From: Trypanosoma brucei
Taxonomy: Eukaryota
Length of the DNA stretch: 64,000 nucleotides
NCBI GenBank assembly: GCA_000002445.1
Contig: CM000208.1
Coordinates: 1,984,001-2,048,000, forward strand
Direction of reading: 5' to 3'
The notes beneath the pieces are model-generated. The model made no database searches. It was not told the DNA's origin and worked only from the letters and a program-made list of their open reading frames with translations. The position numbers were made by a program, and so were the translations under genes. Within the stretch, counting starts at the first letter, position 1; each line of letters begins with the position of its first letter. Shown in pieces: positions 1,723 to 59,954 of this stretch.

Positions 1723-1740
1723 ATATATATATATATATAT
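1723..1740. repeat. (TA)9 microsatellite
   Basis: Direct reading: tatatatatatatatatat. Confidence 0.9.
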
Positions 1741-2008
1741 AAACCCGTTTCGTCTTAAAGGAAAAAAAAAGAGGTATGGCTGAAGTCCCTTTTTTCCCTC
1801 ACGTGCACAAACGGCTCTCCCGTAAATTTAAAAGAAATAAATTAAGATAAAATGACTGGATGGAAGACTGACGACACGGCCCACACGGTAGATAGTTACA
1901 AACATAAATATAAATAAAACAAAACGAGAACACCAGACTCCCAAAATGGAATACGACCATACAAATAATAAAAGTAATTATATAAAATAAACGAAAATAT
2001 AGAAAAGC

Positions 2009-26888: not shown

Positions 26889-29800
26889 CTAAAGCAGCCG
26901 CTCCAAGGAGACGTCAGTATCCGAGTCGGGTTCGGGTTCGTTTAGAAATTTCTTGTAGTCAACAGACGATGACAGAAACGAAGGATCACCCGCCAGCCTC
27001 TCAGACTTTGCAGTCAGTGAATTCTTGGGATTGCACATGTCCTCTCGCTGTGGCGTCCCGGTGGAAGATCCACCGGTCCCGGCAGCGGTCGGGGGCCGCC
27101 GACGAGAAAAACGCATGGCCGAGGAAGTTCTTGCAGCAGGCCCAAGCACCATTGAAGTCGAACCCCTTGATGCAACCCGACCCTCGAGGGCCGCGCCCCG
27201 ATGGTTGAAAGCCACAACATCACCGGTGGCAGTTGGTCGCCAGCGACGTGACAACCGCGTCGATGAGGATCCTCTGGCACTCAAAATCGAACGCCTGGAA
27301 GTCGCCACCGGCGAACATGACTGACAACTGGTGCCGTCTGTTGAAGGTGGGGCGTGAGCAAACAGAGCATCGGAGGCAATACCACTTGCCGATGATCTGT
27401 GCAATATTGGTGCTGTCGAAGACGCTCGTTCAACTGATGTTGAAGCCCTAGAGCTCATTGGCATCGGCCCCACAAAGGCACCACTGGCACTTTTACCCTG
27501 CTGGAGGGGGACGGGTGCCTTAGCGGCGGCAGCGGCATCAGTTGGCGAACATCTATATAGCACACGCGCAGGTGGAGAACTTCTGCCAACAGGAACCGAG
27601 GCCCTGGTAGTGGGAACCTGTGGTGCCGTGCGAGGTCCTGCAGCTGACGATAGTCGATTGGGAAGAGGTGATTGACCCGCCATCACTGATGAGTACCGGC
27701 TCGGCACGCGAAGTGGCGGAGGCGGCCTTCCGCCTGGTGTTGGGGCCCTGGACGCCAGCTGCTGGGGCGCTACCGATTCAGAGGTGTGTACTGTTGACAC
27801 GTTGGCCGCGTTCAAGTGCTCAACGGTGGTGGCGCCTTGGCCACTCGGCTCCACGTTTGGTGCCACTGTCTCGTTTTCCGTGGTGGTTGGGGCACCAGGA
27901 ACATGATCCTGCAACACGGGTGATTCTCCACCGTTCACTTCTGACGGGTGTACTGTAGAAGCAAGACCACCACTGGCGGTTGTTGGGGACTTGTATCGCA
28001 CACGCGCAGGTGGAGAACTTCTGCCAACAGGAACCGAGGCCCTGGTAGTGGGAACCTGTGGTGCCGTGCGAGGTCCTGCAGCTGACGATAGTCGATTGGG
28101 AAGAGGTGATTGACCCGCCATCACTGATGAGTACCGGCTCGGCACGCGAAGTGGCGGAGGCGGCCTTCCGCCTGGTGTTGGGGCCCTGGACGCCAGCTGC
28201 TGGGGCGCTACCGATTCAGAGGTGTGTACTGTTGACACGTTGGCCGCGTTCAAGTGCTCAACGGTGGTGGCGCCTTGGCCACTCGGCTCCACGTTTGGTG
28301 CCACTGTCCCGTTTTCCGTGGTGGTTGGGGCACCAGGAACATGATCCTGCAGCACCGGTGATTCTCCAGCGTTCACTTCTAGTCTGACAACAGGTGCATG
28401 GTCCGCAGTCGTTAAGGGGCGCTGACGTAGTTCACGTACGGCCGGGGATCTCCTCCCACCTGAGGTTGAGGCCCTAGACACTAGAACCCTTGGCGTTAAG
28501 CGGTTGTCCACGTGTGGAGTCGACGAACTTGGAGCGGGAGGATCGGCAACACTCGGGTTACCTTCCACAAGTTCTTCGACAATGGGCACCAGACTCCTAC
28601 CATTGTCTGATGCAGCAGAGACTAAAAGTTGCGAGCTTGAAAGACTGTTTGCAGCACCTGGAGGCGGCCTACTAAGCATCGTAACACCGGTAGCGGCATC
28701 GGTCAATGATAATGTGCACGAATCCTGGAGAACTGACGAATCTTTTTCTAAGGAGTTAGAAACCACTGAGACCTGCGTCTGACTGGTCACGCGTGTTCGA
28801 GTGTTCGCCTTCATCCGGCTGGAGGTAGGCTGTTGGGTAGCGAAGACTGATGATTGCCGACGTAACACCCGCACCGCCGGGGGCCCTCTATCACGTGGGG
28901 TTGAAACCGCGGGGGCCTCGGTGTGCGCTACCTCGCGATTGTCCGCGCTTGCAGCCCCGATGTCGGGTCCGAAAGCATTTTCGTCAATAGGGACAGCTTG
29001 AGGGGAGCCTGAAAACAGCCTAGGAGTCACGGCATTCGTTGAAAACAGGGTTTCCTGTGAAACTTCACTTCTGTCTTTATCGTCTGTTTCGTCCGTTGCC
29101 TCTCTCTCCGAAGCAATATCTGCGTACGTATTGGCAAAGCTTTGTTGTATCAGAGACGTATTCGGTGTTTGACCATCCTGAAGCGTAAGTGTGAGCGCGC
29201 TCTGAGTAACTTCCGGAAGTTGCTTATCCTCCCCGGCGGCGCTTGCCGCCGTCTCATAATGAAAAGAGTTCATGTACGGCATGAGACTTCCGTTGGCATG
29301 GATTGACGAACCCCCATGCCCCCTTTCTGGGTAAAAGGAATCGTTTGGGCCATTGTCGCCGACAAAGTAGCCGCGCTCGGTGTTCACGCTTGCGTCCACT
29401 AACAATTTAGCGTTTTCTGGTGCTTCGCTACTTATGAAGATAAGTGGCACATCACAGCCACGTCGCAAGTATATTAACTTGTGCACGCATCTGAGGGTCC
29501 TCGTGTCGCCAAAAAAAACGTCAGTTATGGACCCGTGATTACCCCGAATACGGAGTACGTTCTGGTGGAGCTCCACTTGAAGGTCACAAAGCGGGAACTC
29601 GGCCAAGCGGGTGCGTGACATGAAGGTGAGGAAAACCAACGAGGCTCTTTCGAACATGAGGGCACCCTGGACACAACCACTGCTCTCTTCATGCGTCGAC
29701 GTCGTAACGTTGGTGGTTAACCGAATGTTCTCGGTAAATAAGATACTATGGGCACAGCGGAGCTCAGCTGCAGACAGGCTGTCTGTGCGGCTCATCTCAA

Positions 29801-30518
29801 CGTCGTCCACCTTGTGCTGCTGCTGCTGCTGCTGCTGAGACTTCAGTTCCTTCTTTGCCTCATAAAGCAACTCTTCAAGATGTTTCACGCGCTCTGTCAT
29901 GCGTTCATACTCCATGGTACTAAAGCACTGTGAATTTTCCACGCTAGTTTGGTTGGGTGGCACTCTGATTATTACTGACTCCCTGCGTTCCTCCAAGGCA
30001 TGATCAATGGTTTTGAAGGTGCCCCGCTGGGCCGGTGACTTCCTGCGAGCTTTCTTACATGCCTCAATGATTTGGAGATACTCCTCTTGTGAGCGAACCC
30101 CAACCTCCAGTTTCCAGCCATAACTTACGGCCAGTGCTGCATGGTAACCCATAGCCCGCGCCGTGTCATATTCCTGAGTTGTAACGGGCACGCCATCGAT
30201 GGTAGTGACCGAAAATCCAACTGCGAGGAGCACCATTACGCGGTGAAGTGGGTGGGCTGCGATGGGATTCCCCTCCAGGTCAATAACAAGCAGCGACGGC
30301 TGCCTGGTTAGACCCATGAAACTCTCAATCATGTTGTTTTCAAGCCGTAGCTCGAGCAATTTGGGGTGCGTGCCGAAGTGCTCAAAGTTTTGGAGGCAGT
30401 TGTCACGGAGGTCAATCGAAACGTAGTCATACCCTTGGTCTTTGATACCCCAGAAGGTGGTTATTTTCTCACCACGGGCATCCAGACGCGACCCGCTCAT
30501 TGCAGCTATATCACACAA
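26889..30518 (-). CDS. Leucine-rich-repeat protein with long P/S/T-rich repetitive C-terminal region (contains 2 x 146-aa repeat and a polyQ tract)
   Basis: N-terminal SDS22-like LRRs (LELRLENNMIESFMGL...LLVIDLEGNPI). Coiled segment with Q7. Two near-identical 146-aa blocks. Confidence 0.5.
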   Translation of the reverse strand: MCDIAAMSGSRLDARGEKITTFWGIKDQGYDYVSIDLRDNCLQNFEHFGTHPKLLELRLENNMIESFMGLTRQPSLLVIDLEGNPIAAHPLHRVMVLLAVGFSVTTIDGVPVTTQEYDTARAMGYHAALAVSYGWKLEVGVRSQEEYLQIIEACKKARRKSPAQRGTFKTIDHALEERRESVIIRVPPNQTSVENSQCFSTMEYERMTERVKHLEELLYEAKKELKSQQQQQQQHKVDDVEMSRTDSLSAAELRCAHSILFTENIRLTTNVTTSTHEESSGCVQGALMFERASLVFLTFMSRTRLAEFPLCDLQVELHQNVLRIRGNHGSITDVFFGDTRTLRCVHKLIYLRRGCDVPLIFISSEAPENAKLLVDASVNTERGYFVGDNGPNDSFYPERGHGGSSIHANGSLMPYMNSFHYETAASAAGEDKQLPEVTQSALTLTLQDGQTPNTSLIQQSFANTYADIASEREATDETDDKDRSEVSQETLFSTNAVTPRLFSGSPQAVPIDENAFGPDIGAASADNREVAHTEAPAVSTPRDRGPPAVRVLRRQSSVFATQQPTSSRMKANTRTRVTSQTQVSVVSNSLEKDSSVLQDSCTLSLTDAATGVTMLSRPPPGAANSLSSSQLLVSAASDNGRSLVPIVEELVEGNPSVADPPAPSSSTPHVDNRLTPRVLVSRASTSGGRRSPAVRELRQRPLTTADHAPVVRLEVNAGESPVLQDHVPGAPTTTENGTVAPNVEPSGQGATTVEHLNAANVSTVHTSESVAPQQLASRAPTPGGRPPPPLRVPSRYSSVMAGQSPLPNRLSSAAGPRTAPQVPTTRASVPVGRSSPPARVRYKSPTTASGGLASTVHPSEVNGGESPVLQDHVPGAPTTTENETVAPNVEPSGQGATTVEHLNAANVSTVHTSESVAPQQLASRAPTPGGRPPPPLRVPSRYSSVMAGQSPLPNRLSSAAGPRTAPQVPTTRASVPVGRSSPPARVLYRCSPTDAAAAAKAPVPLQQGKSASGAFVGPMPMSSRASTSVERASSTAPILHRSSASGIASDALFAHAPPSTDGTSCQSCSPVATSRRSILSARGSSSTRLSRRWRPTATGDVVAFNHRGAALEGRVASRGSTSMVLGPAARTSSAMRFSRRRPPTAAGTGGSSTGTPQREDMCNPKNSLTAKSERLAGDPSFLSSSVDYKKFLNEPEPDSDTDVSLERLL
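27561..28382. repeat. In-frame tandem repeat, period 438 bp, about 1.9 copies, inside the LRR-protein CDS
   Basis: Identical plus-strand spurious ORFs at 27620 and 28058 (offset 438). The DNA blocks starting cacacgcgcaggtggagaacttctgcc at 27561 and 27999 are nearly identical until about 28382. Confidence 0.85.
29816..29836. repeat. (CTG)7 repeat encoding Q7 on the minus strand
   Basis: Direct reading: gctgctgctgctgctgctgctg. The protein shows KSQQQQQQQHK. Confidence 0.85.
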
Positions 30519-42787: not shown

Positions 42788-43354
42788 TCACCTGTAAAAG
42801 GAGAGCACGAACCTCCAGTACCATATCGTCAACGGGTCCAACGGCAGTCCATCAAACCACTTTATTTTCACGAACGGCAACCAGTGCGGACCACTTGCAC
42901 AACTAGAAGTTAGGCACAGCAACCACCTGATTGTTTTGTCAAGTGTAACAAAGTCAAAAATTTCACCAATTAATGAACGATCCATTAAGGAGAATTCTCC
43001 CAACAAATGTTGCGAACCCGTCTTCTCCCTCAGCTGGCCATCTAAAGAGCGAACGTCGTTAAGAAAACCTGCACAGGGCCGCCTTTCCTGAAAGGACCAC
43101 GATAACTCAGCCATGTAAAGAAACCCAACAACGGAGCTTGCTAATCTCTGGGAAGCCCGTACCGCCATTCCAAGTCCGAAGTAGCCGCACGAAGCACCGA
43201 TCAATGCGAAATAAACCCCGAGGGGGTTGAATACACCATTAATAGTACGGCATATAACGGCGCGCTCTCCTATATTTGGTGTGTAGCCTTCTCTTTCTAT
43301 TTGTTTTAACAAACAAAGAAACGCATCCTCTTCAGGCAAAGATGACTGACGCAT
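42788..43354 (-). CDS. Hypothetical protein (188 aa) with predicted hydrophobic segments
   Basis: ORF in array orientation with protein-like composition. No motif recognised. Confidence 0.3.
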   Translation of the reverse strand: MRQSSLPEEDAFLCLLKQIEREGYTPNIGERAVICRTINGVFNPLGVYFALIGASCGYFGLGMAVRASQRLASSVVGFLYMAELSWSFQERRPCAGFLNDVRSLDGQLREKTGSQHLLGEFSLMDRSLIGEIFDFVTLDKTIRWLLCLTSSCASGPHWLPFVKIKWFDGLPLDPLTIWYWRFVLSFYR

Positions 43355-43568
43355 ACCATCTAAATAATACTGGTCGGTGTATCAAGCATATAAAACAGAA
43401 AAAAAAAAAGAAAAAACAGTATAAACGTAGGACAAAACTAGGATTTACAACAACTCACACAACTAACTCCAAGCAAGGATTTTTTTCCTCTCCACCAAAA
43501 AAGTATTAAAAATATAGGGAATCCTCAGATGATTGACAAAAAATTTATAACTTAAGTGATTGCTTTAC

Positions 43569-45791
43569 TTACTGCCCTCCTCTAGCACGACCACGCCCCC
43601 GGCCGCGCCCGTAGTCTGCTGCGCCACGGAAGTCGCTGCCACCTCCGCGTCCAAAACCTCGTCCCCCACGCATATACCCCTGGCCCCGTCCTCCACGGAA
43701 ATCGTTGCCATGCCCGCCCTTCTCGCAGTAGTGGGCAATATTTTCCACACTTCTCGCAGTAGCCTCCACCAGGTACTGCAGGCGTGAAATGTTGCTTCTA
43801 TCCACGTGAAGGTACTGATCATCTCTGTCCCACACAGCAATGAGGGGGGTGTTATTTTCTGATATAATACCGTTAATGACATGCTTAACTGTGCTCTCAG
43901 TTATATCAAACTTCTTGGCCATAATCTCCACGGATATCGTCGCAAAGCTACGCCTGCTGTTGTAACAGAATATCTGTAGGGCTGCTTCCTTCAAACGTTG
44001 TAGAAATGTGTCTCGTGCCTCAGTACCTCTCGGCATGTTATCCCAGACCTTCATGTTTTTGATAACTTCACTTGAGCGCGCATAATCACCCAGCTTCAAG
44101 GCAGTGTAAGCAGCTGTTATTTGCTCTCTGAACTCGATAGGCTCGCCCAGGAGTGGCTGAAACTGCATCTGATTTATTACACGGTAGAAATAGCGGTGAT
44201 GGTGTGTAACCTCGTAGGGCTTTTTTGCTTCGTCCACTGTGCCGACTACAAGCGTTGAAAGCATCGTTGCAAGCTCCAGCTGACTATAAGGGATGTGGGC
44301 GTGTGGAGGCAGTAGTAAATCACGGTACCTCAACTCCTCATCCCCCTTCTCATCTTTTAAATTCGGCAGCTTTTGGCCTATCAATACCTCAGGACCTTCC
44401 CACGAATTCCATAAAGGACTCAGGAGCTCATACGCTTGCATGATGTCACCCATAATGAAGGATGCCAAACCCAGTTGTGCGACAGCTCTGTTATAGAGGA
44501 CAGAATTATGGTTGGAGTTGCACAGCTTCTCTGCCCCACCAGAGCGTCGTATGAGATCCCGTCCCTCCCGGTACTTCCCTTCTAGTCCCATTTGGTAAAC
44601 CAAATGAAGCAGAGCAAGTGATTTGGACTCGTCATCACCGATGAGGAGGAGTTGCTCGTAGAGCGATCGCACTGTCTCAATAACACTGTCACTGACGGCC
44701 TCACGCTGTCCCGGAGGCATCTTGCCAAACAAAATCTCGTGGGCCTCCTGTCTCCTTGACCCAAGGATGTCAACAAGAATCTGGCAACAAACCGCTCTGC
44801 CGCGGCTGTTATCCCTATAATAGCCGAAGAGAGCGTCAGCAATAGCCACCAGCCGGTTCTCCAAGTGAACAATCTCGATATAGTCGGATGGAATACCGTC
44901 TTTAAATTGCGTAATGCGTCGCAGGTGTTTGCTGAGACTCTGCAACAGAGCATGCAACCCACCCTTAATGAATGCATCCCTTTTGTTGAGCTTGTCGGAA
45001 AATTTGTCCGATAGCCTTATTCCGGGATTTTCAACTATCAGACCGAAGCATTCCTCCAACGTATCACAGGATTTTGCCCACGTTTTGGTACTGACGTAGA
45101 CCTCGCGATTATCCTCTTCGAGAAGGGCATCCGCAACGATACCACATGTCGTGATCTGCAGTGCCTTATACCCTTTCCTTTTGCATTCGTTAGCAAGCTT
45201 ACGGTATTTGGACGCTTTCTTACCGGTACACGTCACGGACTCCCGCAGTTGCTTTACAATGTCGTCTTCAGTTAATTCCTTTTCCGCCTCCTCCTCGTCA
45301 CCTTCATCACCATCTTCTTCGTCGTACAAACGTTCAATATCGTCCTTGTACGTCTCCATCGCTTCTTCAACAGCCTTGATCAGCCCCTTGAGGGAACGAA
45401 ACTCCTCTGGCTTTGCAAATGATTCTCTCTCGGATAGGTGTGTCTTGAGATCTGGAGTGTTTCGGAGGCACTCCAGGAATGGGAAAGGTGTCGACTGAAA
45501 TCTCCGCTTGTGGATATCCGATTTCTCGCGAAGCTCTTTGAATGATTGCTCCGCTCCGACCCATGTCCCCTGATCAACGTTGAAGTCAAAAACATCGGCG
45601 TTTGTCTGTATTTCGTTCAATGACTTCTCACGCCGAGAAAGGACGACACGCTGTTCCTCTGCAGCTTCATCATCGGTTATTTCGAACCATTTTGGATCGA
45701 TCTGGGCGGTGTTCCTTTCTACCTGATCGTCGCGCTGGATAACTTCGTCGATACTTTCGTCACTGTCACTTACGTTAAAGAAATCCGCCAT
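43569..45791 (-). CDS. EIF3C: Eukaryotic translation initiation factor 3 subunit C (copy 1)
   Basis: MADFFNVSDSDESIDE start matches eIF3c MSRFF..SDSESE. Acidic region, PCI domain (…FATISVEIMAKKFDITESTVKHVINGIISE…), C-terminal RGG repeats. Central block aligns with human EIF3C (YNRAVAQLGLASF vs YNRTMVQLGICAF). Confidence 0.8.
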   Translation of the reverse strand: MADFFNVSDSDESIDEVIQRDDQVERNTAQIDPKWFEITDDEAAEEQRVVLSRREKSLNEIQTNADVFDFNVDQGTWVGAEQSFKELREKSDIHKRRFQSTPFPFLECLRNTPDLKTHLSERESFAKPEEFRSLKGLIKAVEEAMETYKDDIERLYDEEDGDEGDEEEAEKELTEDDIVKQLRESVTCTGKKASKYRKLANECKRKGYKALQITTCGIVADALLEEDNREVYVSTKTWAKSCDTLEECFGLIVENPGIRLSDKFSDKLNKRDAFIKGGLHALLQSLSKHLRRITQFKDGIPSDYIEIVHLENRLVAIADALFGYYRDNSRGRAVCCQILVDILGSRRQEAHEILFGKMPPGQREAVSDSVIETVRSLYEQLLLIGDDESKSLALLHLVYQMGLEGKYREGRDLIRRSGGAEKLCNSNHNSVLYNRAVAQLGLASFIMGDIMQAYELLSPLWNSWEGPEVLIGQKLPNLKDEKGDEELRYRDLLLPPHAHIPYSQLELATMLSTLVVGTVDEAKKPYEVTHHHRYFYRVINQMQFQPLLGEPIEFREQITAAYTALKLGDYARSSEVIKNMKVWDNMPRGTEARDTFLQRLKEAALQIFCYNSRRSFATISVEIMAKKFDITESTVKHVINGIISENNTPLIAVWDRDDQYLHVDRSNISRLQYLVEATARSVENIAHYCEKGGHGNDFRGGRGQGYMRGGRGFGRGGGSDFRGAADYGRGRGRGRARGGQ

Positions 45792-46139
45792 TTTACCTGA
45801 AAGCTCGATGCTGCTAAGATACCTGCGGTGTACATGCGGATGAGAAAAGGAGGTGAGAACAAAAAGAACAATTGAGGAAAATAATGTATCCGCGCATGAT
45901 AAGCGGGGGCTTGCTCAACCACCGGAGCGAGGTTAGCCACAACGATACTTAACGCATGTTGATATTAAAAAAAGGAGACAGAAAACAAGTAAGCGAATAA
46001 TCTGTTGAGAGAATATGCTCCCGTGTTTTTTTTCCAATTTGGCTTCCTCTCAGCTTCAATGATGGTGTCGACTCCCATAGTCCAAGCATCTTCAACTTGC
46101 AAAAGGTTAGTCATAAGAATATGGTCACTTACGGTAATC

Positions 46140-46472
46140 TCAGTCATCAACTTCAGTTTCAAAAGGCCTTCCAGCTGCAGCGGTACGAATATCTCTGCTG
46201 ATCCTGAGGCCCCTGGCACTCTCGCCATGCGTGTGTGTTGTCACTGCGACACCCGCGCTACATACAGCACCTGCTCCGCATGAGGGCTGTGACGTAGCCA
46301 TAAAGCGTAACGAGTGTGCGAGCTTGTCGAGAAAGGCGCATAGTTTTGCAAGTATGATGTCCGTTCTCTCAACTGCGGTCCAGTTTTTCTCCTGCATGTC
46401 CTGAATCTCTTTCAACATTTCATCAAGATGCATTGTGAGCTGCGGGTGAAAGAACAGGGGAAATGGTAACAA
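46140..46472 (-). CDS. Small hypothetical ORF (110 aa) conserved in both repeat copies
   Basis: Protein-like N-terminal 45 aa (MHLDEMLKEIQDMQEKNWTAVERTDIILAKL...). Overlaps a second-frame ORF (45965-46228). A frameshifted or degenerate gene is possible. Confidence 0.2.
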   Translation of the reverse strand: MLPFPLFFHPQLTMHLDEMLKEIQDMQEKNWTAVERTDIILAKLCAFLDKLAHSLRFMATSQPSCGAGAVCSAGVAVTTHTHGESARGLRISRDIRTAAAGRPFETEVDD

Positions 46473-46527
46473 AAAATTAAAGGCGTCTAAGAAAAAGCAC
46501 AGTTATTGGCTTACCATTATAACCAAT

Positions 46528-46992
46528 CTATCCGTCAAACATCCTTTTTATTTTGGTGGAAATATGTTCATTAGCAAACGAAACAACGGCCGCATTCGCA
46601 CCAACAATCTGATGCTGCTCAACGCCTTTGACATGTCTCAAATTTAACTCAACCCATAAAGAAGTGGCCCCACGTATAATGACGAACCGGGATGGTCTGT
46701 GCGTCACACTGCACCCTGGTACCTCAGAAACAGGAGGCACAGTAATGCTCACTCGTATCGTTTCACCAAATAGTAAAAACCCGTTCATTTTTATGTAAGC
46801 CTCTTGAGCAGACACAGATTCCGCGTAAGTCACCAGTGCCTCACCTACGTCGACATCCAAGAGAACGTCATACAACGACCCGAGTTCCCCAAAGCAGCGT
46901 AGGAGTGCTAATCTGCAAAACTCTACACCAAATGTAAACTTTAAACCCTGAACGCGAAGCGCCTCCATCACTCCCCCATCAAGGCATAACAA
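46528..46992 (-). CDS. RRM-like domain protein (copy 1, 154 aa)
   Basis: GELGSLYDVLLDVDVGEALVTYAESVSAQEAYIKMNGFLLFGETIRVS has the RNP1/beta3-alpha2-beta4 pattern of an RRM. Confidence 0.45.
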   Translation of the reverse strand: MLCLDGGVMEALRVQGLKFTFGVEFCRLALLRCFGELGSLYDVLLDVDVGEALVTYAESVSAQEAYIKMNGFLLFGETIRVSITVPPVSEVPGCSVTHRPSRFVIIRGATSLWVELNLRHVKGVEQHQIVGANAAVVSFANEHISTKIKRMFDG

Positions 46993-47212
46993 TGGAAAAG
47001 TGGTTTAATCTAAAGTAATACCAACAAATAGGCAGCAAAGCAAGAGGCGAAAGTTAATACAGCAGTTCCAGCACAAATACATAATATATCAACAACTAAA
47101 CCAGTAACATAAACAGATAATTTACGGTCATAAACATATGATTAGCAGTCGGTTAGCGTAATTACGTTTAATATTTAAAGTAGAGCTGTAACAACTTAAG
47201 TGATTGCTTTAC

Positions 47213-49435
47213 TTACTGCCCTCCCCTAGCACGACCACGCCCCCGGCCGCGCCCGTAGTCTGCTGCGCCACGGAAGTCGCTGCCACCTCCGCGTCCAAAA
47301 CCTCGTCCCCCACGCATATACCCCTGGCCCCGTCCTCCACGGAAATCGTTGCCATGCCCGCCCTTCTCGCAGTAGTGGGCAATATTTTCCACACTTCTCG
47401 CAGTAGCCTCCACCAGGTACTGCAGGCGTGAAATGTTGCTTCTATCCACGTGAAGGTACTGATCATCTCTGTCCCACACAGCAATGAGGGGGGTGTTATT
47501 TTCTGATATAATACCGTTAATGACATGCTTAACTGTGCTCTCAGTTATATCAAACTTCTTGGCCATAATCTCCACGGATATCGTCGCAAAGCTACGCCTG
47601 CTGTTGTAACAGAATATCTGTAGGGCTGCTTCCTTCAAACGTTGTAGAAATGTGTCTCGTGCCTCAGTACCTCTCGGCATGTTATCCCAGACCTTCATGT
47701 TTTTGATAACTTCACTTGAGCGCGCATAATCACCCAGCTTCAAGGCAGTGTAAGCAGCTGTTATTTGCTCTCTGAACTCGATAGGCTCGCCCAGGAGTGG
47801 CTGAAACTGCATCTGATTTATTACACGGTAGAAATAGCGGTGATGGTGTGTAACCTCGTAGGGCTTTTTTGCTTCGTCCACTGTGCCGACTACAAGCGTT
47901 GAAAGCATCGTTGCAAGCTCCAGCTGACTATAAGGGATGTGGGCGTGTGGAGGCAGTAGTAAATCACGGTACCTCAACTCCTCATCCCCCTTCTCATCTT
48001 TTAAATTCGGCAGCTTTTGGCCTATCAATACCTCAGGACCTTCCCACGAATTCCATAAAGGACTCAGGAGCTCATACGCTTGCATGATGTCACCCATAAT
48101 GAAGGATGCCAAACCCAGTTGTGCGACAGCTCTGTTATAGAGGACAGAATTATGGTTGGAGTTGCACAGCTTCTCTGCCCCACCAGAGCGTCGTATGAGA
48201 TCCCGTCCCTCCCGGTACTTCCCTTCTAGTCCCATTTGGTAAACCAAATGAAGCAGAGCAAGTGATTTGGACTCGTCATCACCGATGAGGAGGAGTTGCT
48301 CGTAGAGCGATCGCACTGTCTCAATAACACTGTCACTGACGGCCTCACGCTGTCCCGGAGGCATCTTGCCAAACAAAATCTCGTGGGCCTCCTGTCTCCT
48401 TGACCCAAGGATGTCAACAAGAATCTGGCAACAAACCGCTCTGCCGCGGCTGTTATCCCTATAATAGCCGAAGAGAGCGTCAGCAATAGCCACCAGCCGG
48501 TTCTCCAAGTGAACAATCTCGATATAGTCGGATGGAATACCGTCTTTAAATTGCGTAATGCGTCGCAGGTGTTTGCTGAGACTCTGCAACAGAGCATGCA
48601 ACCCACCCTTAATGAATGCATCCCTTTTGTTGAGCTTGTCGGAAAATTTGTCCGATAGCCTTATTCCGGGATTTTCAACTATCAGACCGAAGCATTCCTC
48701 CAACGTATCACAGGATTTTGCCCACGTTTTGGTACTGACGTAGACCTCGCGATTATCCTCTTCGAGAAGGGCATCCGCAACGATACCACATGTCGTGATC
48801 TGCAGTGCCTTATACCCTTTCCTTTTGCATTCGTTAGCAAGCTTACGGTATTTGGACGCTTTCTTACCGGTACACGTCACGGACTCCCGCAGTTGCTTTA
48901 CAATGTCGTCTTCAGTTAATTCCTTTTCCGCCTCCTCCTCGTCACCTTCATCACCATCTTCTTCGTCGTACAAACGTTCAATATCGTCCTTGTACGTCTC
49001 CATCGCTTCTTCAACAGCCTTGATCAGCCCCTTGAGGGAACGAAACTCCTCTGGCTTTGCAAATGATTCTCTCTCGGATAGGTGTGTCTTGAGATCTGGA
49101 GTGTTTCGGAGGCACTCCAGGAATGGGAAAGGTGTCGACTGAAATCTCCGCTTGTGGATATCCGATTTCTCGCGAAGCTCTTTGAATGATTGCTCCGCTC
49201 CGACCCATGTCCCCTGATCAACGTTGAAGTCAAAAACATCGGCGTTTGTCTGTATTTCGTTCAATGACTTCTCACGCCGAGAAAGGACGACACGCTGTTC
49301 CTCTGCAGCTTCATCATCGGTTATTTCGAACCATTTTGGATCGATCTGGGCGGTGTTCCTTTCTACCTGATCGTCGCGCTGGATAACTTCGTCGATACTT
49401 TCGTCACTGTCACTTACGTTAAAGAAATCCGCCAT
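47213..49435 (-). CDS. EIF3C: Eukaryotic translation initiation factor 3 subunit C (copy 2, protein identical to copy 1)
   Basis: Same as copy 1. One synonymous difference near the stop (tct vs cct on the plus strand = AGA vs AGG Arg). Confidence 0.8.
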   Translation of the reverse strand: MADFFNVSDSDESIDEVIQRDDQVERNTAQIDPKWFEITDDEAAEEQRVVLSRREKSLNEIQTNADVFDFNVDQGTWVGAEQSFKELREKSDIHKRRFQSTPFPFLECLRNTPDLKTHLSERESFAKPEEFRSLKGLIKAVEEAMETYKDDIERLYDEEDGDEGDEEEAEKELTEDDIVKQLRESVTCTGKKASKYRKLANECKRKGYKALQITTCGIVADALLEEDNREVYVSTKTWAKSCDTLEECFGLIVENPGIRLSDKFSDKLNKRDAFIKGGLHALLQSLSKHLRRITQFKDGIPSDYIEIVHLENRLVAIADALFGYYRDNSRGRAVCCQILVDILGSRRQEAHEILFGKMPPGQREAVSDSVIETVRSLYEQLLLIGDDESKSLALLHLVYQMGLEGKYREGRDLIRRSGGAEKLCNSNHNSVLYNRAVAQLGLASFIMGDIMQAYELLSPLWNSWEGPEVLIGQKLPNLKDEKGDEELRYRDLLLPPHAHIPYSQLELATMLSTLVVGTVDEAKKPYEVTHHHRYFYRVINQMQFQPLLGEPIEFREQITAAYTALKLGDYARSSEVIKNMKVWDNMPRGTEARDTFLQRLKEAALQIFCYNSRRSFATISVEIMAKKFDITESTVKHVINGIISENNTPLIAVWDRDDQYLHVDRSNISRLQYLVEATARSVENIAHYCEKGGHGNDFRGGRGQGYMRGGRGFGRGGGSDFRGAADYGRGRGRGRARGGQ

Positions 49436-49784
49436 TTTACCTGAAAGCTCGATGCTGCTAAGATACCTGCGGTGTACATGCGGATGAGAAAAGGAGGTGA
49501 GAACAAAAAGAACAATTGAGGAAAATAATGTATCCGCGCATGATAAGCGGGGGCTTGCTCAACCACCGGAGCGAGGTTAGCCACAACGATACTTAACGCA
49601 TGTTGATATTAAAAAAAGGAGACAGAAAACAAGTAAGCGAATAATCTGTTGAGAGAATATGCTCCCGTGTTTTTTTTTCCAATTTGGCTTCCTCTCAGCT
49701 TCAATGATGGTGTCGACTCCCATAGTCCAAGCATCTTCAACTTGCAAAAGGTTAGTCATAAGAATATGGTCACTTACGGTAATC

Positions 49785-50117
49785 TCAGTCATCAACTTCA
49801 GTTTCAAAAGGCCTTCCAGCTGCAGCGGTACGAATATCTCTGCTGATCCTGAGGCCCCTGGCACTCTCGCCATGCGTGTGTGTTGTCACTGCGACACCCG
49901 CGCTACATACAGCACCTGCTCCGCATGAGGGCTGTGACGTAGCCATAAAGCGTAACGAGTGTGCGAGCTTGTCGAGAAAGGCGCATAGTTTTGCAAGTAT
50001 GATGTCCGTTCTCTCAACTGCGGTCCAGTTTTTCTCCTGCATGTCCTGAATCTCTTTCAACATTTCATCAAGATGCATTGTGAGCTGCGGGTGAAAGAAC
50101 AGGGGAAATGGTAACAA
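49785..50117 (-). CDS. Small hypothetical ORF (copy 2 of 46140-46472)
   Basis: Identical translation to the copy-1 ORF. Confidence 0.2.
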   Translation of the reverse strand: MLPFPLFFHPQLTMHLDEMLKEIQDMQEKNWTAVERTDIILAKLCAFLDKLAHSLRFMATSQPSCGAGAVCSAGVAVTTHTHGESARGLRISRDIRTAAAGRPFETEVDD

Positions 50118-50121
50118 AAAA

Positions 50122-50637
50122 TTAAAGGCGTCTAAGAAAAAGCACAGTTATTGGCTTACCATTATAACCAATCTGTCCGTCAAACATCCTTTTTATTTTG
50201 GTGGAAATATGTTCATTAGCAAACGAAACAACGGCCGCATTCGCACCAACAATCTGATGCTGCTCAACGCCTTTGACATGTCTCAAATTTAACTCAACCC
50301 ATAAAGAAGTGGCCCCGCGTATAATGACGAACCGGGATGGTCTGTGCGTCACACTGCACCCTGGTACCTCAGAAACAGGAGGCACAGTAATGCTCACTCG
50401 TATCGTTTCACCAAATAGTAAAAACCCGTTCATTTTTATGTAAGCCTCTTGAGCAGACACAGATTCCGCGTAAGTCACCAGTGCCTCACCTACGTCGACA
50501 TCCAAGAGAACGTCATACAACGACCCGAGTTCCCCAAAGCAGCGTAGGAGTGCTAATCTGCAAAACTCTACACCAAATGTAAACTTTAAACCCTGAACGC
50601 GAAGCGCCTCCATCACTCCCCCATCAAGGCATAACAA
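50122..50637 (-). CDS. RRM-like domain protein (copy 2, 171 aa; 17-aa C-terminal extension relative to copy 1)
   Basis: Identical to copy 1 over 154 aa. Copy 1 has TAG (plus strand cta at 46529-46531) where copy 2 has CAG (ctg at 50173-50175), so copy 2 reads on through QIGYNGKPITVLFLRRL. Confidence 0.45.
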   Translation of the reverse strand: MLCLDGGVMEALRVQGLKFTFGVEFCRLALLRCFGELGSLYDVLLDVDVGEALVTYAESVSAQEAYIKMNGFLLFGETIRVSITVPPVSEVPGCSVTHRPSRFVIIRGATSLWVELNLRHVKGVEQHQIVGANAAVVSFANEHISTKIKRMFDGQIGYNGKPITVLFLRRL

Positions 50638-50869
50638 TGGAAAAGTGGTTTAATCTAAAGTAATACCAACAAATAGGCAGCAAAGCAAGAGGCGAAAGTT
50701 AATACAGCAGTTCCAGCACAAATACATAATATATCAACAACTAAACCAGTAACATAAACAGATAATTTACGGTCATAAACATATGATTAGCAGTCGGTTA
50801 GCGTAATTACGTTTAATATGTTAGAAGATGATATGCCAAGTAAGAAACAGGTGAAAAACACTGGTTACG

Positions 50870-51721
50870 TTATGATAGCGGCACCCATAGTAACAATTTG
50901 TTGTTGAGTCTTTTTGTTTTTTCTGATTCGTTGATAGCTGATTGGGGGACAGTTATGAAAGTTGTGCCATCAGGGGCGGAAAAGACGACTCCAAGATGAT
51001 GAAGGGCAAGGGCAGTATCTTCAATGTTTATCGCCGATTTCGATGAAATTGTACGTAGTGTTAGGGGTAGTCGTTCCTTATGTATTGCAAACATGGCTCT
51101 TAACAATTCCTCACGCCATATTCTGGAGAATATACGCTTTCCTCCGGTGCTTAACGGTCTTTCAGGTGTTCCAGCTATTCCCTCAATCTTAGCCATTTCA
51201 TACGATAATTCTACAAGAAGTGAACCATAACCCTTTGATCGGTACGGTGGCAACACCATTAGGCACGAAAGTGTGTTTGTGCAAGATAGTGTTTTTCTCC
51301 ATTCCTTGCTGAAGTATCCTGCAAAATGATAACCATAATCATCTAATTCAAAAATAACTATGAATGCGAAAAAATGTAGGTCATCTAAAGTAGTTTTTTC
51401 ATCCAAAAAGAATTTGGATAGATAGGCAATCCTCCTTGTGAAGGAACTACAGACCGCTTTCCGCCCGTCGATCTCCATAATGACGCACTTCCGTTCGTCG
51501 CATCGATATATTTCATCACCAGGAATCCAGTAGCGATAAGTACATATTTCAGCGTGCTTAATGAGGTCAGGCAGCGAGGAGAACTGCGAAAGACAAGCTT
51601 CACATAAGAAAATTTTTTCAGTGTCCTTTATAGCTTGCTGGACGAAACCTGTAACGGAATGTGCCTGATATTCCCGAAACAGCGTTTTGATGACAGTGTC
51701 TCCCGACCTCTGTCGTTTCAT
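50870..51721 (-). CDS. MYST-family histone acetyltransferase (small, chromodomain-less; HAT3-like)
   Basis: C2HC finger FLCEACLSQFSSLPDLIKHAEIC. MYST core LSKFFLDEKTTLDDLHFFAFIVIFE...GYFSKEW...LSCLMVLPPYRSKGYGSLLVELSYEMAK (R-x-x-G-x-G acetyl-CoA motif). GTPERPLS. Confidence 0.75.
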   Translation of the reverse strand: MKRQRSGDTVIKTLFREYQAHSVTGFVQQAIKDTEKIFLCEACLSQFSSLPDLIKHAEICTYRYWIPGDEIYRCDERKCVIMEIDGRKAVCSSFTRRIAYLSKFFLDEKTTLDDLHFFAFIVIFELDDYGYHFAGYFSKEWRKTLSCTNTLSCLMVLPPYRSKGYGSLLVELSYEMAKIEGIAGTPERPLSTGGKRIFSRIWREELLRAMFAIHKERLPLTLRTISSKSAINIEDTALALHHLGVVFSAPDGTTFITVPQSAINESEKTKRLNNKLLLWVPLS

Positions 51722-57015: not shown

Positions 57016-59954
57016 TTTCAGAAACTTTGCGGGCCCTGGTCTCACAGCAGCGCTGCCCACTTTTCGACTGCGCGGCGGTCTCCCGGCCCCCTTGCACAAC
57101 ACAGTAGCACCATCGGCGCTGTCAAGTATGAAAGGTGCGCCACCGGATAGTATATTCAATTTGAAGAGGCCACTAGTCAGGCTCGAATGTTGCGGGGGGG
57201 GGCATATATTTTAGCCATTCTCACCACCAACACCTCTGCCTCGTCCGACACATGTCTCTTCAGCCCCCACAAAAGAAGAGGCTCGTGTGCGTGACTTTTG
57301 AAGCTTACCAAAATGTGCGCACTGCGAATGGGGAAACTACCTTATCCATGTTGTTACGCTAATCATCGGAAATAACCAAGCCCATGCCGTAGGGATTGCC
57401 TGAGAACACTGGCTTTCGACAGCCTCGCCGGATGTTCCCTTCTCTGTTTCCGTTTCGCCCAGCCCTACGTCGGCATCTTGCAAATCCCTTTTTTAGTGGT
57501 GGTCAGTTGCCCATCCCCCACCATGTCACCATCATTTCCTTAGGACAACAAGCCAGTTGCAATATTGGCTGCCAGCCACTTCAATAGTTACACATGGTTA
57601 TTGTCTTTCCGAAAGGGCAAAAGCCATAATGGGTTCACCCAGTGGCAAGTATTTCTTTGCATCGAAAAGGAACAGAGTGTCCTTCACGCTCCTCTTCTTG
57701 CTCTCCATTTCGGTGGGGAATTTGCTCGAAACTTAATCAGCTTCGGCCTAGTTGTCTTGGGAACCTCTCGCAAGTGTTTCCGCGCATCTCTTGTAGGCCG
57801 AAGGGTAGGGCCTAATAGCCCTGACATCCTCGTCTGGATCATTCATTCCCCCACACGCTGTGTGGCACAATACTGTTGGCGCCGCTGCCCCTAAACAACC
57901 TGTTTCCCGTCTCCTCGGAAGACGCGTCTATGAAAGGGCCCTTCAACCATTGGATGGTGCTGTCGAATCCTCCCTGAAGGATAGGCTTAAATTGATTGCG
58001 ACACGCCTTCCCGTGTGTCGGAACTGATCCGTCCACAAAGAAAGAAGCGCCGGAAGCCGAGTTTCCTGTTCAGTGCTCCGCTCTGTCTACCCATTTTTCT
58101 GAGCAAACCGAGATCCAGCACCAGTCCTTGCGGCGCCTCGCGTGTTGGTGCGGGGTTCCGCAACATTCTGCCTACTGTTCCATCCCTCGCCGTTCCGTTG
58201 TGCAGAAAACTATCCATCCGCTTCGTGATGTGTCGGGCAAGGGAGAAGCCCTCAGACATGCGGGTAACACGGCCATGTTTAACCAACCTGAATGCACAAA
58301 CACAGTCTGCTAATGAGCCCATGGTGTTTCGTGACGTTTCTTCCACAGCTCAGGTTCCAACGAGTTATTCTGTGCTGTTGGTTGCCGAATACTACCCTGA
58401 TACCAGGTTGTTGTGTCTGCAACCGACTCTCGTGTGAGTTTTGATGCAATCCAACGGTGATCTGCCACATTAGCTTCCACACTTTCGCCGTTACCGTCAC
58501 CGACCGGAAGTGTGATGACAACGAAAAGTTAAGTCGGCCCTGGAAGACCCATAGCTCATCCAGCTTCTGCTTCCATAATCTTTGGGTACCGTAAAAATTT
58601 GTTGAACAACTTCGACTGTTGCCGGGAAACATTGATGTGCTTGTGATCGGGCTTCTCATAACGAACGTTGCCCTCGTCTGTGGCAACCCTGTTTGAAAGA
58701 AAAACGAGACCACCTCTGATAGCATTTGGCACCCCACTGGTTCCGGTGGCCATTTCCTCGTACTTTCTTTGATATGCCGAGCCTGTTATTCATTGTGCGT
58801 AACTGTTACTTCGTGCTGGGACGCCGTTACATTTTTCGTCGGTTCCAAGGAACGCAAAAGCACAGCATCGGCACCGTTGCCGGCGCCGTCACCCCCGGGG
58901 AGTAACTCCAGCGGAGGCGTGGAACGAATCTGCAGAAAAGGAATCACATTGATCCTGGCGGGCGGGGCCGCCGGGTCATGTGTGGGAGGGCGGCGGTTCG
59001 TTCGTGGCACCGGGGGAGAGAGCATTGTCATCGGGATGACATCCTTGGGGCTGCTGCGAGGAGCTTTCGGGCGCGAGAAAACCGCGCCAACCGTGCAGAG
59101 CTGTTGCGGGGGGAGGAGGCCGGCTCGTCAACTCGAGTGGGGTTGTGGCAAGTCGCTTGGGCCGTGCTCGGTGCTATCAATGGGAGAGACCAGGCGGCCG
59201 CGCCGAGCAAGAGGCGCCCCCGACTGGTAGCGAAGTTTTTCGGGGAACCGTTACCCCCTCCCCCCACTTGAGGCATGGCTGGGTTGATGGTTGTTCAGAA
59301 GATGCTTTGGCTTTGTTTACCGCCGGCGGTAGTGGGTTCTTTTGGGTGGGCGAGGTGTTCCCTTAGGGATCTCCCTTCCCTGGGATGGCGAAATATGATC
59401 GGCACACATTGCTCGAACTGGTGCCGCTGACTGGGCACGGATGTGAGTGGTGGGTCCGTGCGGCGGAGTATACAAAGGAAGAAAAGTAGTGGGTATGGGT
59501 GTAGAAAGAGCCCCCAGGCTGCCGTACTGAGTTCGCTAGTAGAGAAGGATCGCTGATCGGCCACACCTTGAGGTCGGAAGAAGCGTTAGACCTGTGCACC
59601 CGGCCCTGTAGCCGAGGCGTTTTTGAAGTATGTTCAGGTTTCCAAGTGGGGAATAGTGGCTAGTTGACCACTGTGCGTCCGGAATTGAGGTATGTTTTTT
59701 TTTTTTGTAAGTCCGCGTTGAAGTGGTCTTCATATCCACTGGTGGTCAGTTTTCCACTCTCGTCCCTGGGAGTCACCTATTGTTTTCTCCCCCTTTCTTG
59801 TGAAGGCAATTGCATGTCACCTTGCACTTGACAGTATCACTGTACAAGGGCCTAATCACTGTGTTTATTTACTATTATTTTTATTTGCATTATCATTCAC
59901 TGTCGTCGTCATTGTTTCAACAATACTTCACTAGGGTAATGGTGTCTACGGGAA

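What the first reader, a model, noticed from the sequence alone, without database searches (positions are those of the whole stretch)
43549..50819. Near-perfect 3.64-kb tandem duplication carrying eIF3c plus an RRM-like gene
Two head-to-tail copies (43549-47175 and 47193-50819, period 3644 bp) have identical ORF content: eIF3c of 740 aa, a 110-aa small ORF and an RRM-like ORF. I could find only about four nucleotide differences in about 3.6 kb:
- a synonymous Arg codon next to the eIF3c stop;
- a T8/T9 homopolymer;
- an A/G change that is synonymous in the RRM gene;
- an A/G change that converts the copy-1 stop codon of the RRM gene to Gln in copy 2.
This implies either a very recent duplication or ongoing gene conversion. 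A doubled dose of the core initiation factor eIF3c would be a notable copy-number feature. Alternatively, the array may be collapsed or expanded by the assembler.
Basis: seen in the sequence. Interest (0 to 1): 0.65.

Follow-up and report, generated by a model that had tools for sequence, protein, structure and literature searches.

The report
Recent tandem duplication in Trypanosoma brucei
A real 3.6-kb stretch of Trypanosoma brucei chromosome 10, carrying the U1A splicing protein, a small conserved gene and translation factor eIF3c, is present twice in a row; this is a recent, strain-variable duplication of a common and already annotated kind.

Summary
Window 43549-47174 and 47193-50819 are head-to-tail copies that differ by three transitions and one homopolymer base, joined by an 18-nt filler.

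The window is T. brucei brucei TREU927 chromosome 10. Both gene pairs are already annotated and cited in the literature: eIF3c as Tb927.10.8270/8290 and U1A as Tb927.10.8280/8300.

It is not an assembly artefact. The independent T. equiperdum OVI assembly holds the identical junction, filler included, followed by a scaffold gap.

T. b. equiperdum IVM-t1 and four other Trypanosoma species have one unit in the same gene order. The duplication is therefore derived and varies between strains. Its age is about that of the TREU927-OVI split: 0.08% between the copies against 0.10% between the strains.

- The "RRM-like gene" is U1A. The copy-1 stop is a derived nonsense mutation that removes 17 conserved residues.
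- The two eIF3c genes have different 3' UTRs beyond nucleotide 20.
- The "110-aa ORF" (97 aa from its ATG) looks like a genuine conserved small gene missing from the TREU927 GenBank record.

Near-identical tandem duplications of housekeeping genes are a documented feature of T. brucei. Verdict: real, ordinary, already known, low interest.

The parts
47193..50819 (-). Duplicated unit, copy 2. It is the upstream copy in the direction of transcription and holds U1A-2, small ORF-2 and eIF3c-2.
43549..47174 (-). Duplicated unit, copy 1. It is the downstream copy and holds U1A-1 (truncated), small ORF-1 and eIF3c-1.
47175..47192 (.). 18-nt filler at the duplication junction (TTAAAGTAGAGCTGTAAC on the + strand). 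It matches neither flank and occurs only once in the window.
   Evidence: The identical filler is present in T. equiperdum OVI at L002 13421-13440.
47213..49435 (-). eIF3c-2 CDS (740 aa, EAN78235.1 / Tb927.10.8290 or 8270). Its 3' UTR is chimeric: 20 native nt, then the filler, then U1A upstream sequence.
   Evidence: Pfam eIF-3c_N, E = 1.8e-24.
43569..45791 (-). eIF3c-1 CDS (740 aa, identical protein, EAN78233.1). It keeps the native 3' flank.
50122..50613 (-). U1A-2 CDS, 163 aa, full length (EAN78236.1). The protein is identical in T. b. gambiense, T. equiperdum OVI and IVM-t1.
46528..46968 (-). U1A-1 CDS, 146 aa (EAN78234.1). A derived CAG>TAG nonsense change at 46528-46530 removes 17 conserved C-terminal residues.
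49785..50078 (-). Small ORF-2, 97 aa from its ATG. It is probably a genuine conserved small gene.
46140..46433 (-). Small ORF-1, identical to small ORF-2.
   Evidence: (no differences fall inside it).
49467..49512 (-). 31-nt polypyrimidine tract (49482-49512) and AG trans-splice acceptor of eIF3c-2. The spliced leader joins at 49467, 32 nt upstream of the ATG. The equivalent site in copy 1 is 45823-45868.
   Evidence: RNA-derived contig L006 carries the last 16 nt of the spliced leader fused at this position.
46026..46033 (.). T8 homopolymer in the spacer between the small ORF and eIF3c. It is T9 in copy 2 at 49670-49678, and its length also varies between strains.
50870..51721 (-). Flanking single-copy MYST histone acetyltransferase (EAN78237.1). 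Its stop lies 50 nt from the upstream breakpoint.
42788..43354 (-). Flanking single-copy gene for a conserved hypothetical protein of 188 aa (EAN78232.1), downstream of eIF3c-1.

Best explanation
This is a genuine, evolutionarily recent tandem segmental duplication. It lies inside a long minus-strand polycistronic transcription unit of Trypanosoma brucei chromosome 10.

Formation (partly inferred):
- The ancestral order was HAT3 > U1A > small ORF > eIF3c > 188-aa gene.
- One illegitimate joining event, not driven by homology, linked a break 20 nt downstream of the eIF3c stop to a break 206 nt upstream of the U1A ATG (50 nt downstream of the HAT3 stop).
- The event left an 18-nt filler of unknown origin at the junction.
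- This pattern suggests microhomology- or filler-type end joining, or a replication template switch. That part is inference.

Age and distribution:
- The event happened once, in an ancestor shared by TREU927 and T. equiperdum OVI.
- It is absent from IVM-t1 and from other Trypanosoma species, so it is a copy-number polymorphism.

How it works (inferred from trypanosome biology):
- Trypanosome genes have no promoters of their own, and each unit carries its own polypyrimidine tracts and AG acceptors.
- Both units should therefore be co-transcribed and processed, roughly doubling the template dose for eIF3c and the small ORF.

The two units are no longer equivalent:
- The downstream U1A has acquired a nonsense mutation, consistent with relaxed constraint on a redundant copy.
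- The upstream eIF3c has a chimeric 3' UTR.

The identity of the copies reflects recency and does not require gene conversion.
For: Shown here:
- The repeat and its four differences.
- The organism, and the fact that both copies are already annotated.
- An identical junction and filler in the independent OVI assembly, followed by a 10-N gap and the end of a second eIF3c.
- An uninterrupted single copy in IVM-t1.
- A single unit with conserved gene order in four T. cruzi assemblies, T. theileri, T. melophagium and T. grayi.
- Divergence between the copies of 3 substitutions plus 1 indel in 3626 nt. The flanks differ by 0.10% from OVI, 0.52% from IVM-t1 and 0.55% from DAL972.
- The AGG variant next to the junction is shared by TREU927 copy 2 and the OVI junction-proximal copy. 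This copy-specific variant therefore predates the strain split and has not been homogenised.
- All orthologues of U1A are 163 aa with a conserved C-terminus, so the copy-1 stop is derived.
- There is no homology between the breakpoints, and the filler is unique in the window.
- The eIF3c splice acceptor is mapped by a contig containing spliced-leader sequence and coincides with a 31-nt polypyrimidine tract.

From the literature:
- eIF3c is listed as Tb927.10.8270/8290 (PMC4320536) and U1A as Tb927.10.8280/8300 (PMC11613528).
- Near-identical 1-10 kb tandem duplications and the dosage rationale are described in PMC1855330 and PMC2854126.
Against: - Copy number in TREU927 (exactly two? the same on both homologues?) could not be tested without reads.
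- TREU927 chromosome 10 was shotgun-assembled from both homologues, and heterozygosity is 0.0022 (PMC2854126). Some 'copy 1 versus copy 2' differences, including the nonsense site, could be allelic or misassigned. The TAG allele and the T8 length are seen only in TREU927.
- IVM-t1 could in principle be a collapsed assembly, although its sequence runs continuously into the unique flank.
- The DAL972 locus has a 100-N gap inside eIF3c and is uninformative.
- The formation mechanism, the doubling of mRNA and the 3' UTR consequences are inferred, not measured.
Confidence: 0.87

Rival explanations
1. Assembly artefact: the assembler expanded a single-copy locus, or laid the two haplotypes of the diploid TREU927 genome end to end.
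For: - The copies differ by 0.08-0.11%. That is within the range of TREU927 allelic heterozygosity, 0.22% (PMC2854126).
- Chromosome 10 was assembled from shotgun reads of both homologues (PMC2854126).
- Three other assemblies display one annotated unit.
Against: - The junction carries an 18-nt filler found nowhere else in the window. An assembler cannot invent such sequence.
- The identical junction and filler occur in the independently sequenced T. equiperdum OVI contig. That contig differs from TREU927 at other sites, so it was not copied from the reference.
- In OVI the junction is followed by a scaffold gap and the end of a second eIF3c, which is the signature of a collapsed true repeat.
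Confidence: 0.03
2. An old duplication kept nearly identical by continuing gene conversion or unequal crossing-over (concerted evolution), rather than a recent event.
For: - Concerted evolution through gene conversion and unequal crossing-over is documented for T. brucei tandem arrays (PMC1855330).
- The OVI collapsed consensus mixes copy-1-type and copy-2-type alleles.
Against: - The locus is single-copy with the same gene order in every outgroup examined and in IVM-t1.
- Divergence between the copies matches the TREU927-OVI divergence, and is five times lower than the divergence from the single-copy strains. Simple recency is enough.
- The junction-proximal AGG variant is retained in both TREU927 and OVI, so it has not been homogenised since they split.
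Confidence: 0.07
3. The true array differs from the reference in copy number: three or more units collapsed to two, or two units on one homologue and one on the other.
For: [quoted passage not shown] - Once two 3.6-kb copies exist, unequal crossing-over can change their number.
Against: There is no positive evidence. The TREU927 sequence is continuous across both units with distinct variants in each.
Confidence: 0.2
4. The duplication is kept by selection for a higher or differently regulated eIF3c dose. The different 3' UTRs would give the two eIF3c genes distinct expression.
For: - In trypanosomes gene dose is a main route to higher expression (PMC1855330).
- The eIF3c CDS differs only by one synonymous change, while the co-duplicated U1A has a nonsense mutation.
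- The two eIF3c 3' UTRs diverge after nucleotide 20.
Against: - The event is too recent for the substitution pattern to carry statistical weight: only three substitutions in all.
- IVM-t1 has a single copy.
- No other eIF3 subunit is known to be doubled. PMC4320536 lists a single ID for the subunits shown.
- Most such duplications in T. brucei look neutral (PMC2854126).
Confidence: 0.12

Closest known systems
Strain-specific near-identical tandem segmental duplications in T. brucei (Jackson et al. 2010, PMC2854126 Table 1; Jackson 2007, PMC1855330)
   Same: - Head-to-tail units of 1.3-10 kb holding 1-4 genes, sitting inside polycistronic units.
- Copies differ by 0-0.2%.
- Copy number differs between T. 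brucei strains and subspecies.
- The genes are often housekeeping or translation genes, such as EF2, RACK1, ribosomal proteins S7 and L4, and enolase.
- The terminal copies have curtailed or different UTRs.
   Different: - This particular locus is not in either paper's tables. Jackson 2007 covered arrays of more than 3 copies, and DAL972 has a gap here.
- The junction detail (no homology, 18-nt filler) and the sharing with T. equiperdum OVI are described here, and I did not find them in the papers read.
Classical trypanosome tandem arrays (tubulin, HSP70, histones, PGK)
   Same: Co-directional repeats are co-transcribed, and each copy is processed by trans-splicing and polyadenylation. This raises gene dose where individual promoters are absent.
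   Different: Those arrays are old, have many copies, are shared across species and evolve in concert. This one has two copies, is recent and varies within the species.
Tandem duplications with inserted filler DNA at the junction, as produced by microhomology-mediated or alternative end joining or by replication template switching in other eukaryotes
   Same: The breakpoints share no extended homology, and a short insertion of unknown origin sits at the novel junction.
   Different: The mechanism was not tested here. The source of the filler was not found in the 64-kb window, and the rest of the genome could not be searched.

Membership tests
Recent strain-variable tandem segmental duplication in a T. 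brucei polycistronic unit | Head-to-tail direct repeat with near-identical copies on the same coding strand | tested here: met
   3626/3627-nt units with 3 substitutions and 1 indel. All genes lie on the minus strand.
Recent strain-variable tandem segmental duplication in a T. brucei polycistronic unit | Single copy at the syntenic locus in outgroup species | tested here: met
   T. cruzi x4, T. theileri, T. melophagium and T. grayi each have one U1A-eIF3c unit in the same gene order. T. congolense and T. vivax could not be examined.
Recent strain-variable tandem segmental duplication in a T. brucei polycistronic unit | Copy number differs between strains, and the novel junction has independent support | tested here: met
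   The OVI contig carries the identical junction and filler. IVM-t1 runs continuously from eIF3c into the unique flank. DAL972 is uninformative because of its 100-N gap.
Recent strain-variable tandem segmental duplication in a T. brucei polycistronic unit | Each copy retains its own RNA-processing signals | tested here: met
   The polypyrimidine tracts and AG acceptors upstream of eIF3c and the small ORF lie inside the unit and are duplicated. The eIF3c acceptor is confirmed by a contig containing spliced-leader sequence. The U1A acceptor is inferred only, from the pyrimidine-rich sequence upstream.
Duplication by non-allelic homologous recombination between pre-existing repeats | Homologous sequence at both ancestral breakpoints | tested here: not met
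   the sequences around 50819/50820 and 43548/43549 share no more than 'ATA'. An 18-nt filler sits at the junction. No other repeats occur in the window apart from an unrelated 438-bp coding repeat.
Retrocopy (mRNA-derived duplicate) | The copy begins at the spliced-leader site, ends in a poly(A) tract and lacks intergenic sequence | tested here: not met
   The unit holds three genes with their intergenic spacers and polypyrimidine tracts. There is no spliced-leader or poly(A) remnant at the boundaries.
eIF3 subunit c (eIF3c / NIP1) | Sequence match to the eIF3c N-terminal family above Pfam's threshold | tested here: met
   PF05470, E = 1.8e-24, 86.5 bits against a cut-off of 24.2. The sources name it eIF3 subunit 8.
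eIF3 subunit c (eIF3c / NIP1) | PCI domain in the C-terminal half | tested here: not met
   No PCI family was reported at E <= 0.01. Trypanosomatid eIF3 subunits are known to be highly divergent (PMC4320536), so this is weak evidence against membership.
eIF3 subunit c (eIF3c / NIP1) | Physical membership of the eIF3 complex | not testable with these tools
   PMC5311491 reports that TbIF3c co-purifies in an 11-subunit complex and crosslinks to RNA. This was not tested here.
U1A / U2B'' snRNP protein | N-terminal RRM most similar to U1A/U2B'' RRM1 | tested here: inconclusive
   A profile of 9 orthologues hits many human U1A RRM1 chains at E about 5e-4 to 2e-3, but other RRM proteins score equally well or better. 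Pfam RRM_1 gives E = 2.8e-5.
U1A / U2B'' snRNP protein | Association with U1 snRNA | not testable with these tools
   The name comes from database annotation and from PMC11613528, which cites TriTrypDB.

The most novel reading that the evidence does not exclude
The two units may have become functionally distinct, and the duplication may be held in the TREU927/OVI lineage by selection on eIF3c dose or regulation. The upstream unit would supply intact U1A plus an eIF3c mRNA with a new chimeric 3' UTR. The downstream unit would supply native eIF3c while its U1A decays. All three genes, including a previously unrecognised Trypanosoma-specific small protein gene nested right after the U1A stop codon, would change in dose.
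Probability: 0.12. Interest if true: 0.35.

Novelty: already known. Interest (0 to 1): 0.15.

Why it matters
It matters mainly for practical reasons.

- Anyone working with T. brucei TREU927 should know that eIF3c and U1A each have two gene IDs in a 99.9%-identical repeat. Reads multi-map there, RNAi and knock-outs hit or must remove both copies, and copy number differs between strains.
- One U1A copy (146 aa) is truncated and should not be taken as the reference protein.
- The shared junction is a ready-made PCR marker linking TREU927 to the T. equiperdum OVI lineage.
- The only item that may be new biology is the conserved small ORF downstream of U1A. If expressed, it adds a Trypanosoma-specific small protein to the gene list.

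None of this changes the understanding of translation initiation or of genome evolution in trypanosomes.

Tried and rejected
- The other 740-aa ORF in the window (8014-10236) is not a third eIF3c. BLASTP gives E = 0.33, and it is a UFL1-type E3 UFM1 ligase.
- The AlphaFold2 model of U1A from a 9-sequence alignment had mean pLDDT 36. It was not used as evidence, so the idea that the lost 17 residues form the last strand of a second RRM remains a guess. Profile searches detect only the N-terminal RRM.
- The origin of the 18-nt filler was not found. There is no second match in the window with up to 3 mismatches, and the T. brucei genome outside the window could not be searched.
- The supplements and Table 1 of the T. 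b. gambiense genome paper do not list this locus. Jackson 2007 does not mention it. The T. brucei eIF3 paper does not discuss copy number.
- Logan contig L006 at first looked like eIF3c in a different genomic context. It is an RNA-derived chimera: antisense squalene-synthase-like sequence, 20 nt of reverse-complemented eIF3c CDS, 16 nt of spliced leader, then eIF3c. It is useful only for mapping the splice site.
- The ends of the Logan contigs do not coincide with the breakpoints. They say nothing about copy number in those samples.
- I first assigned the 97-aa gene called in other assemblies to the 87/98-aa ORF. One search showed that it is the 110-aa ORF read from its ATG.
- The query carried 23 C-terminal residues that I mistyped. 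Only its match over the true N-terminal 47 residues is meaningful. Searches used the correct sequence.
- The 87/98-aa ORF hit by the homopolymer indel has no outgroup conservation and is treated as spurious.
- Rfam and tRNA scans of the window found nothing.
- The small ORF has no Pfam, PDB or distant-homologue match. It is absent from the Ericson 2014 small-ORF supplements.

Full report
**Observation.** A self-comparison of the window shows two head-to-tail copies, 43549-47174 and 47193-50819. They are offset by 3644 bp, and by 3645 bp after a one-base indel. An 18-nt sequence (47175-47192) sits between them and belongs to neither copy.

The copies differ at exactly four places:
- 43581 T / 47225 C;
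- a T8 run (46026-46033) versus a T9 run (49670-49678);
- 46530 A / 50175 G;
- 46672 A / 50317 G.

The description is therefore accurate apart from a one-base difference in the end of copy 1.

**Where the window comes from.** Exact-sequence look-ups place it on chromosome 10 of Trypanosoma brucei brucei TREU927. The 740-aa protein matches Pfam eIF-3c_N (E = 1.8e-24). It already has two GenBank accessions in that strain, EAN78233.1 and EAN78235.1.

The RRM ORF, read from its ATG, is 146 aa in copy 1 (EAN78234.1) and 163 aa in copy 2 (EAN78236.1). Sources name it the U1A small nuclear ribonucleoprotein.

The literature cites both pairs as duplicates. eIF3c is given as Tb927.10.8270/Tb927.10.8290 (PMC4320536). 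U1A is given as Tb927.10.8280/8300 (PMC11613528).

All ORFs from about 2.9 to 58.7 kb are on the minus strand, and plus-strand genes begin at about 59.9 kb. The duplication therefore lies inside one long polycistronic unit that starts at a divergent strand-switch region.

**Is it real?** Three other Trypanozoon assemblies display one annotated U1A-eIF3c unit. Reading them closely separates three situations.

- *T. equiperdum OVI (L002).* The sequence runs from the eIF3c stop through 20 nt, then the identical 18-nt filler, then 31 nt of the U1A upstream region. A 10-N scaffold gap follows, and then the last bases of another eIF3c joined to the unique downstream flank. That is a true repeat collapsed by the assembler. 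It is an independent witness of the junction, because the OVI contig differs from TREU927 at other positions.
- *T. b. equiperdum IVM-t1 (L001).* The sequence runs without interruption from eIF3c into the unique flank, so this is the unduplicated state.
- *T. b. gambiense DAL972 (L003).* There is a 100-N gap inside eIF3c, so this locus is uninformative.

An assembler cannot invent a filler sequence that is then found in another strain. The artefact explanation is rejected for the existence of the duplication. The exact copy number and zygosity in TREU927 remain untested.

**Ancestral state and age.** The gene order PSP1-domain protein, 124-aa protein, MYST acetyltransferase, U1A, eIF3c, then proteins of about 188, 265 and 374 aa is conserved with a single U1A-eIF3c unit in:
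- four T. cruzi assemblies;
- T. theileri;
- T. melophagium;
- T. grayi, on a contig that starts inside U1A.

Between the copies there are 3 substitutions plus 1 indel in 3626 nt (0.08% substitutions). The single-copy flanks differ from OVI by 7/6725 (0.10%), from IVM-t1 by 35/6717 (0.52%) and from DAL972 by 37/6715 (0.55%).

The AGG variant beside the junction is present both in TREU927 copy 2 and in the junction-proximal copy of OVI. IVM-t1, DAL972 and an RNA-derived contig have AGA. That copy-specific variant therefore arose after the duplication and before the two strains split, and it has not been homogenised since.

The simplest reading is a single event shortly before the TREU927-OVI divergence. 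Gene conversion is not needed to explain the identity.

**How it formed.** The ancestral breakpoints are 20 nt downstream of the eIF3c stop (43548|43549) and 206 nt upstream of the U1A ATG (50819|50820). The second is also 50 nt downstream of the MYST gene stop.

The sequences at the two sites share nothing beyond 'ATA'. The filler has no second match in the window, and there are no flanking repeats. This excludes homologous recombination between pre-existing repeats.

It also excludes a retrocopy, because the unit contains intergenic spacers and no spliced-leader or poly(A) remnant. Joining without homology and with inserted filler points to end joining or a replication template switch. That is an inference, and the filler's source could not be sought outside the window.

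**How it is expected to work.** Trypanosome genes lack individual promoters, so dose follows copy number. This is background knowledge, discussed in PMC1855330.

Each unit carries its own processing signals. A 31-nt polypyrimidine tract and AG lie upstream of eIF3c. An RNA-derived public contig (L006) carries the last 16 nt of the spliced leader fused exactly at that AG, 32 nt before the ATG (window 45823 / 49467).

The two units are no longer equivalent in two respects:
- *U1A.* The copy-1 TAG is derived. All orthologues are 163 aa, and the 17 residues removed are conserved across the genus. The TAG allele is seen only in TREU927. Which structural element is lost is unknown, because the AlphaFold2 model was unusable (pLDDT 36) and only the N-terminal RRM is detectable by sequence.
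- *eIF3c.* The upstream gene (copy 2) shares only 20 nt of 3' UTR with the downstream gene, and then continues into the filler and U1A upstream sequence. 3' UTRs carry most gene regulation in trypanosomes, so the two mRNAs could behave differently. This was not measured.

**Caveat on the variants.** TREU927 chromosome 10 was assembled from shotgun reads of both homologues, and heterozygosity is 0.0022 (PMC2854126). Some of the four differences may therefore be allelic rather than copy-specific.

The homopolymer is hypervariable: A8 and A9 in TREU927, A9 in OVI, A9 with a neighbouring G>A change in IVM-t1, and A11 in DAL972.

**The small ORF.** From its first ATG it is 97 aa (49785-50078 and 46140-46433, identical in both copies).

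I expected it to be spurious, but the evidence points the other way:
- Its first ~50 residues are conserved at the syntenic position, 37-71 nt after the U1A stop, in T. cruzi, T. theileri, T. melophagium and T. grayi. In each of these it is an intact 59-aa ORF.
- Pairwise nucleotide differences over 44 gap-free codons total 163, 95 and 232 at codon positions 1, 2 and 3. For T. brucei against T. cruzi the counts are 17:12:31 (chi-square p = 0.008).
- The other two frames contain stops in every species.
- Each species has a polypyrimidine tract and AG a few bases before the ATG.

This is the signature of a protein-coding gene. It is not among the consecutive TREU927 accessions EAN78233-78237. 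It is annotated only in T. equiperdum (TEOVI_000168100). It is absent from the Ericson 2014 small-ORF supplements and matches no Pfam family or solved structure. I could not check current TriTrypDB gene models.

The other small ORF (87 aa in copy 1 and 98 aa in copy 2, altered by the homopolymer indel) has no outgroup conservation.

**Comparison with what is known.** Near-identical tandem duplications of 1.3-10 kb, with 1-4 genes and copy number differing between T. brucei subspecies, are tabulated in PMC2854126 (Table 1). They include EF2, RACK1, ribosomal proteins S7 and L4, and enolase. Their dynamics are analysed in PMC1855330.

This locus fits that class in every tested feature. It is not listed there, probably because it has only two copies and falls on a DAL972 gap.

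**Verdict.** The artefact alternative is rejected. The feature is already annotated and belongs to a common, well-described class, so interest is low.

The refinements worth recording are:
- the junction shared with T. equiperdum OVI;
- the derived truncation of one U1A copy;
- the chimeric 3' UTR of one eIF3c copy;
- a probably genuine, unannotated small gene inside the unit.

Noticed in passing
window 49785-50078 and 46140-46433 (minus strand); orthologous ORFs at L007 8564-8743, L011 8530-8709, L012 4530-4709, L013 464-643: The '110-aa ORF' (97 aa from its ATG) is conserved as an intact 59-aa ORF right after the U1A stop in four other Trypanosoma species. Substitutions are biased to third codon positions, and a polypyrimidine tract plus AG lies just upstream of the ATG. 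It is probably a real small gene. It is missing from the TREU927 GenBank annotation and has no recognisable family.
   Followed up: yes
L006 (Logan ERR7929157 contig), 1-810: This RNA-derived contig is chimeric. It joins antisense squalene-synthase-like sequence, 20 nt of reverse-complemented eIF3c CDS, and 16 nt of spliced leader to the eIF3c 5' UTR. It maps the eIF3c trans-splice site, and it shows that such public contigs can mimic rearrangements.
   Followed up: yes
window 27556-28380: A 438-bp tandem repeat (1.9 copies, 98% identical) lies inside a 1209-aa minus-strand ORF (26889-30518) with no Pfam match. This is an internal 146-aa protein repeat.
   Followed up: no
window 46026-46033 / 49670-49678 and the homologous sites in L001-L003: The length of the A/T homopolymer in the spacer between the small ORF and eIF3c differs in every sequence examined (8, 9, 9, 9 with an adjacent G>A change, 11). 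It is a hypervariable site, so it is a poor marker of copy identity.
   Followed up: yes
window 58700-59950: Genes switch from the minus strand (up to about 58.7 kb) to the plus strand (a CAF1-family ribonuclease from 59955). This is a divergent strand-switch region, which would be the expected transcription start zone for the unit containing the duplication.
   Followed up: no
window 1-2000: The first 2 kb are markedly AT-rich (GC 0.33, against about 0.50 elsewhere) and hold no ORF of 150 aa or more.
   Followed up: no
window 8014-10236: A second ORF of exactly 740 aa is unrelated to eIF3c. It is a UFL1-type E3 UFM1-protein ligase (PF09743, E = 1e-76). The equal length is coincidence.
   Followed up: yes
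L003 11153-11252 (T. b. gambiense DAL972): A 100-N gap replaces the 5' part of eIF3c. This explains the 368-aa 'fragment' annotation (CBH15918.1). It leaves open whether DAL972 has one or two units.
   Followed up: partly
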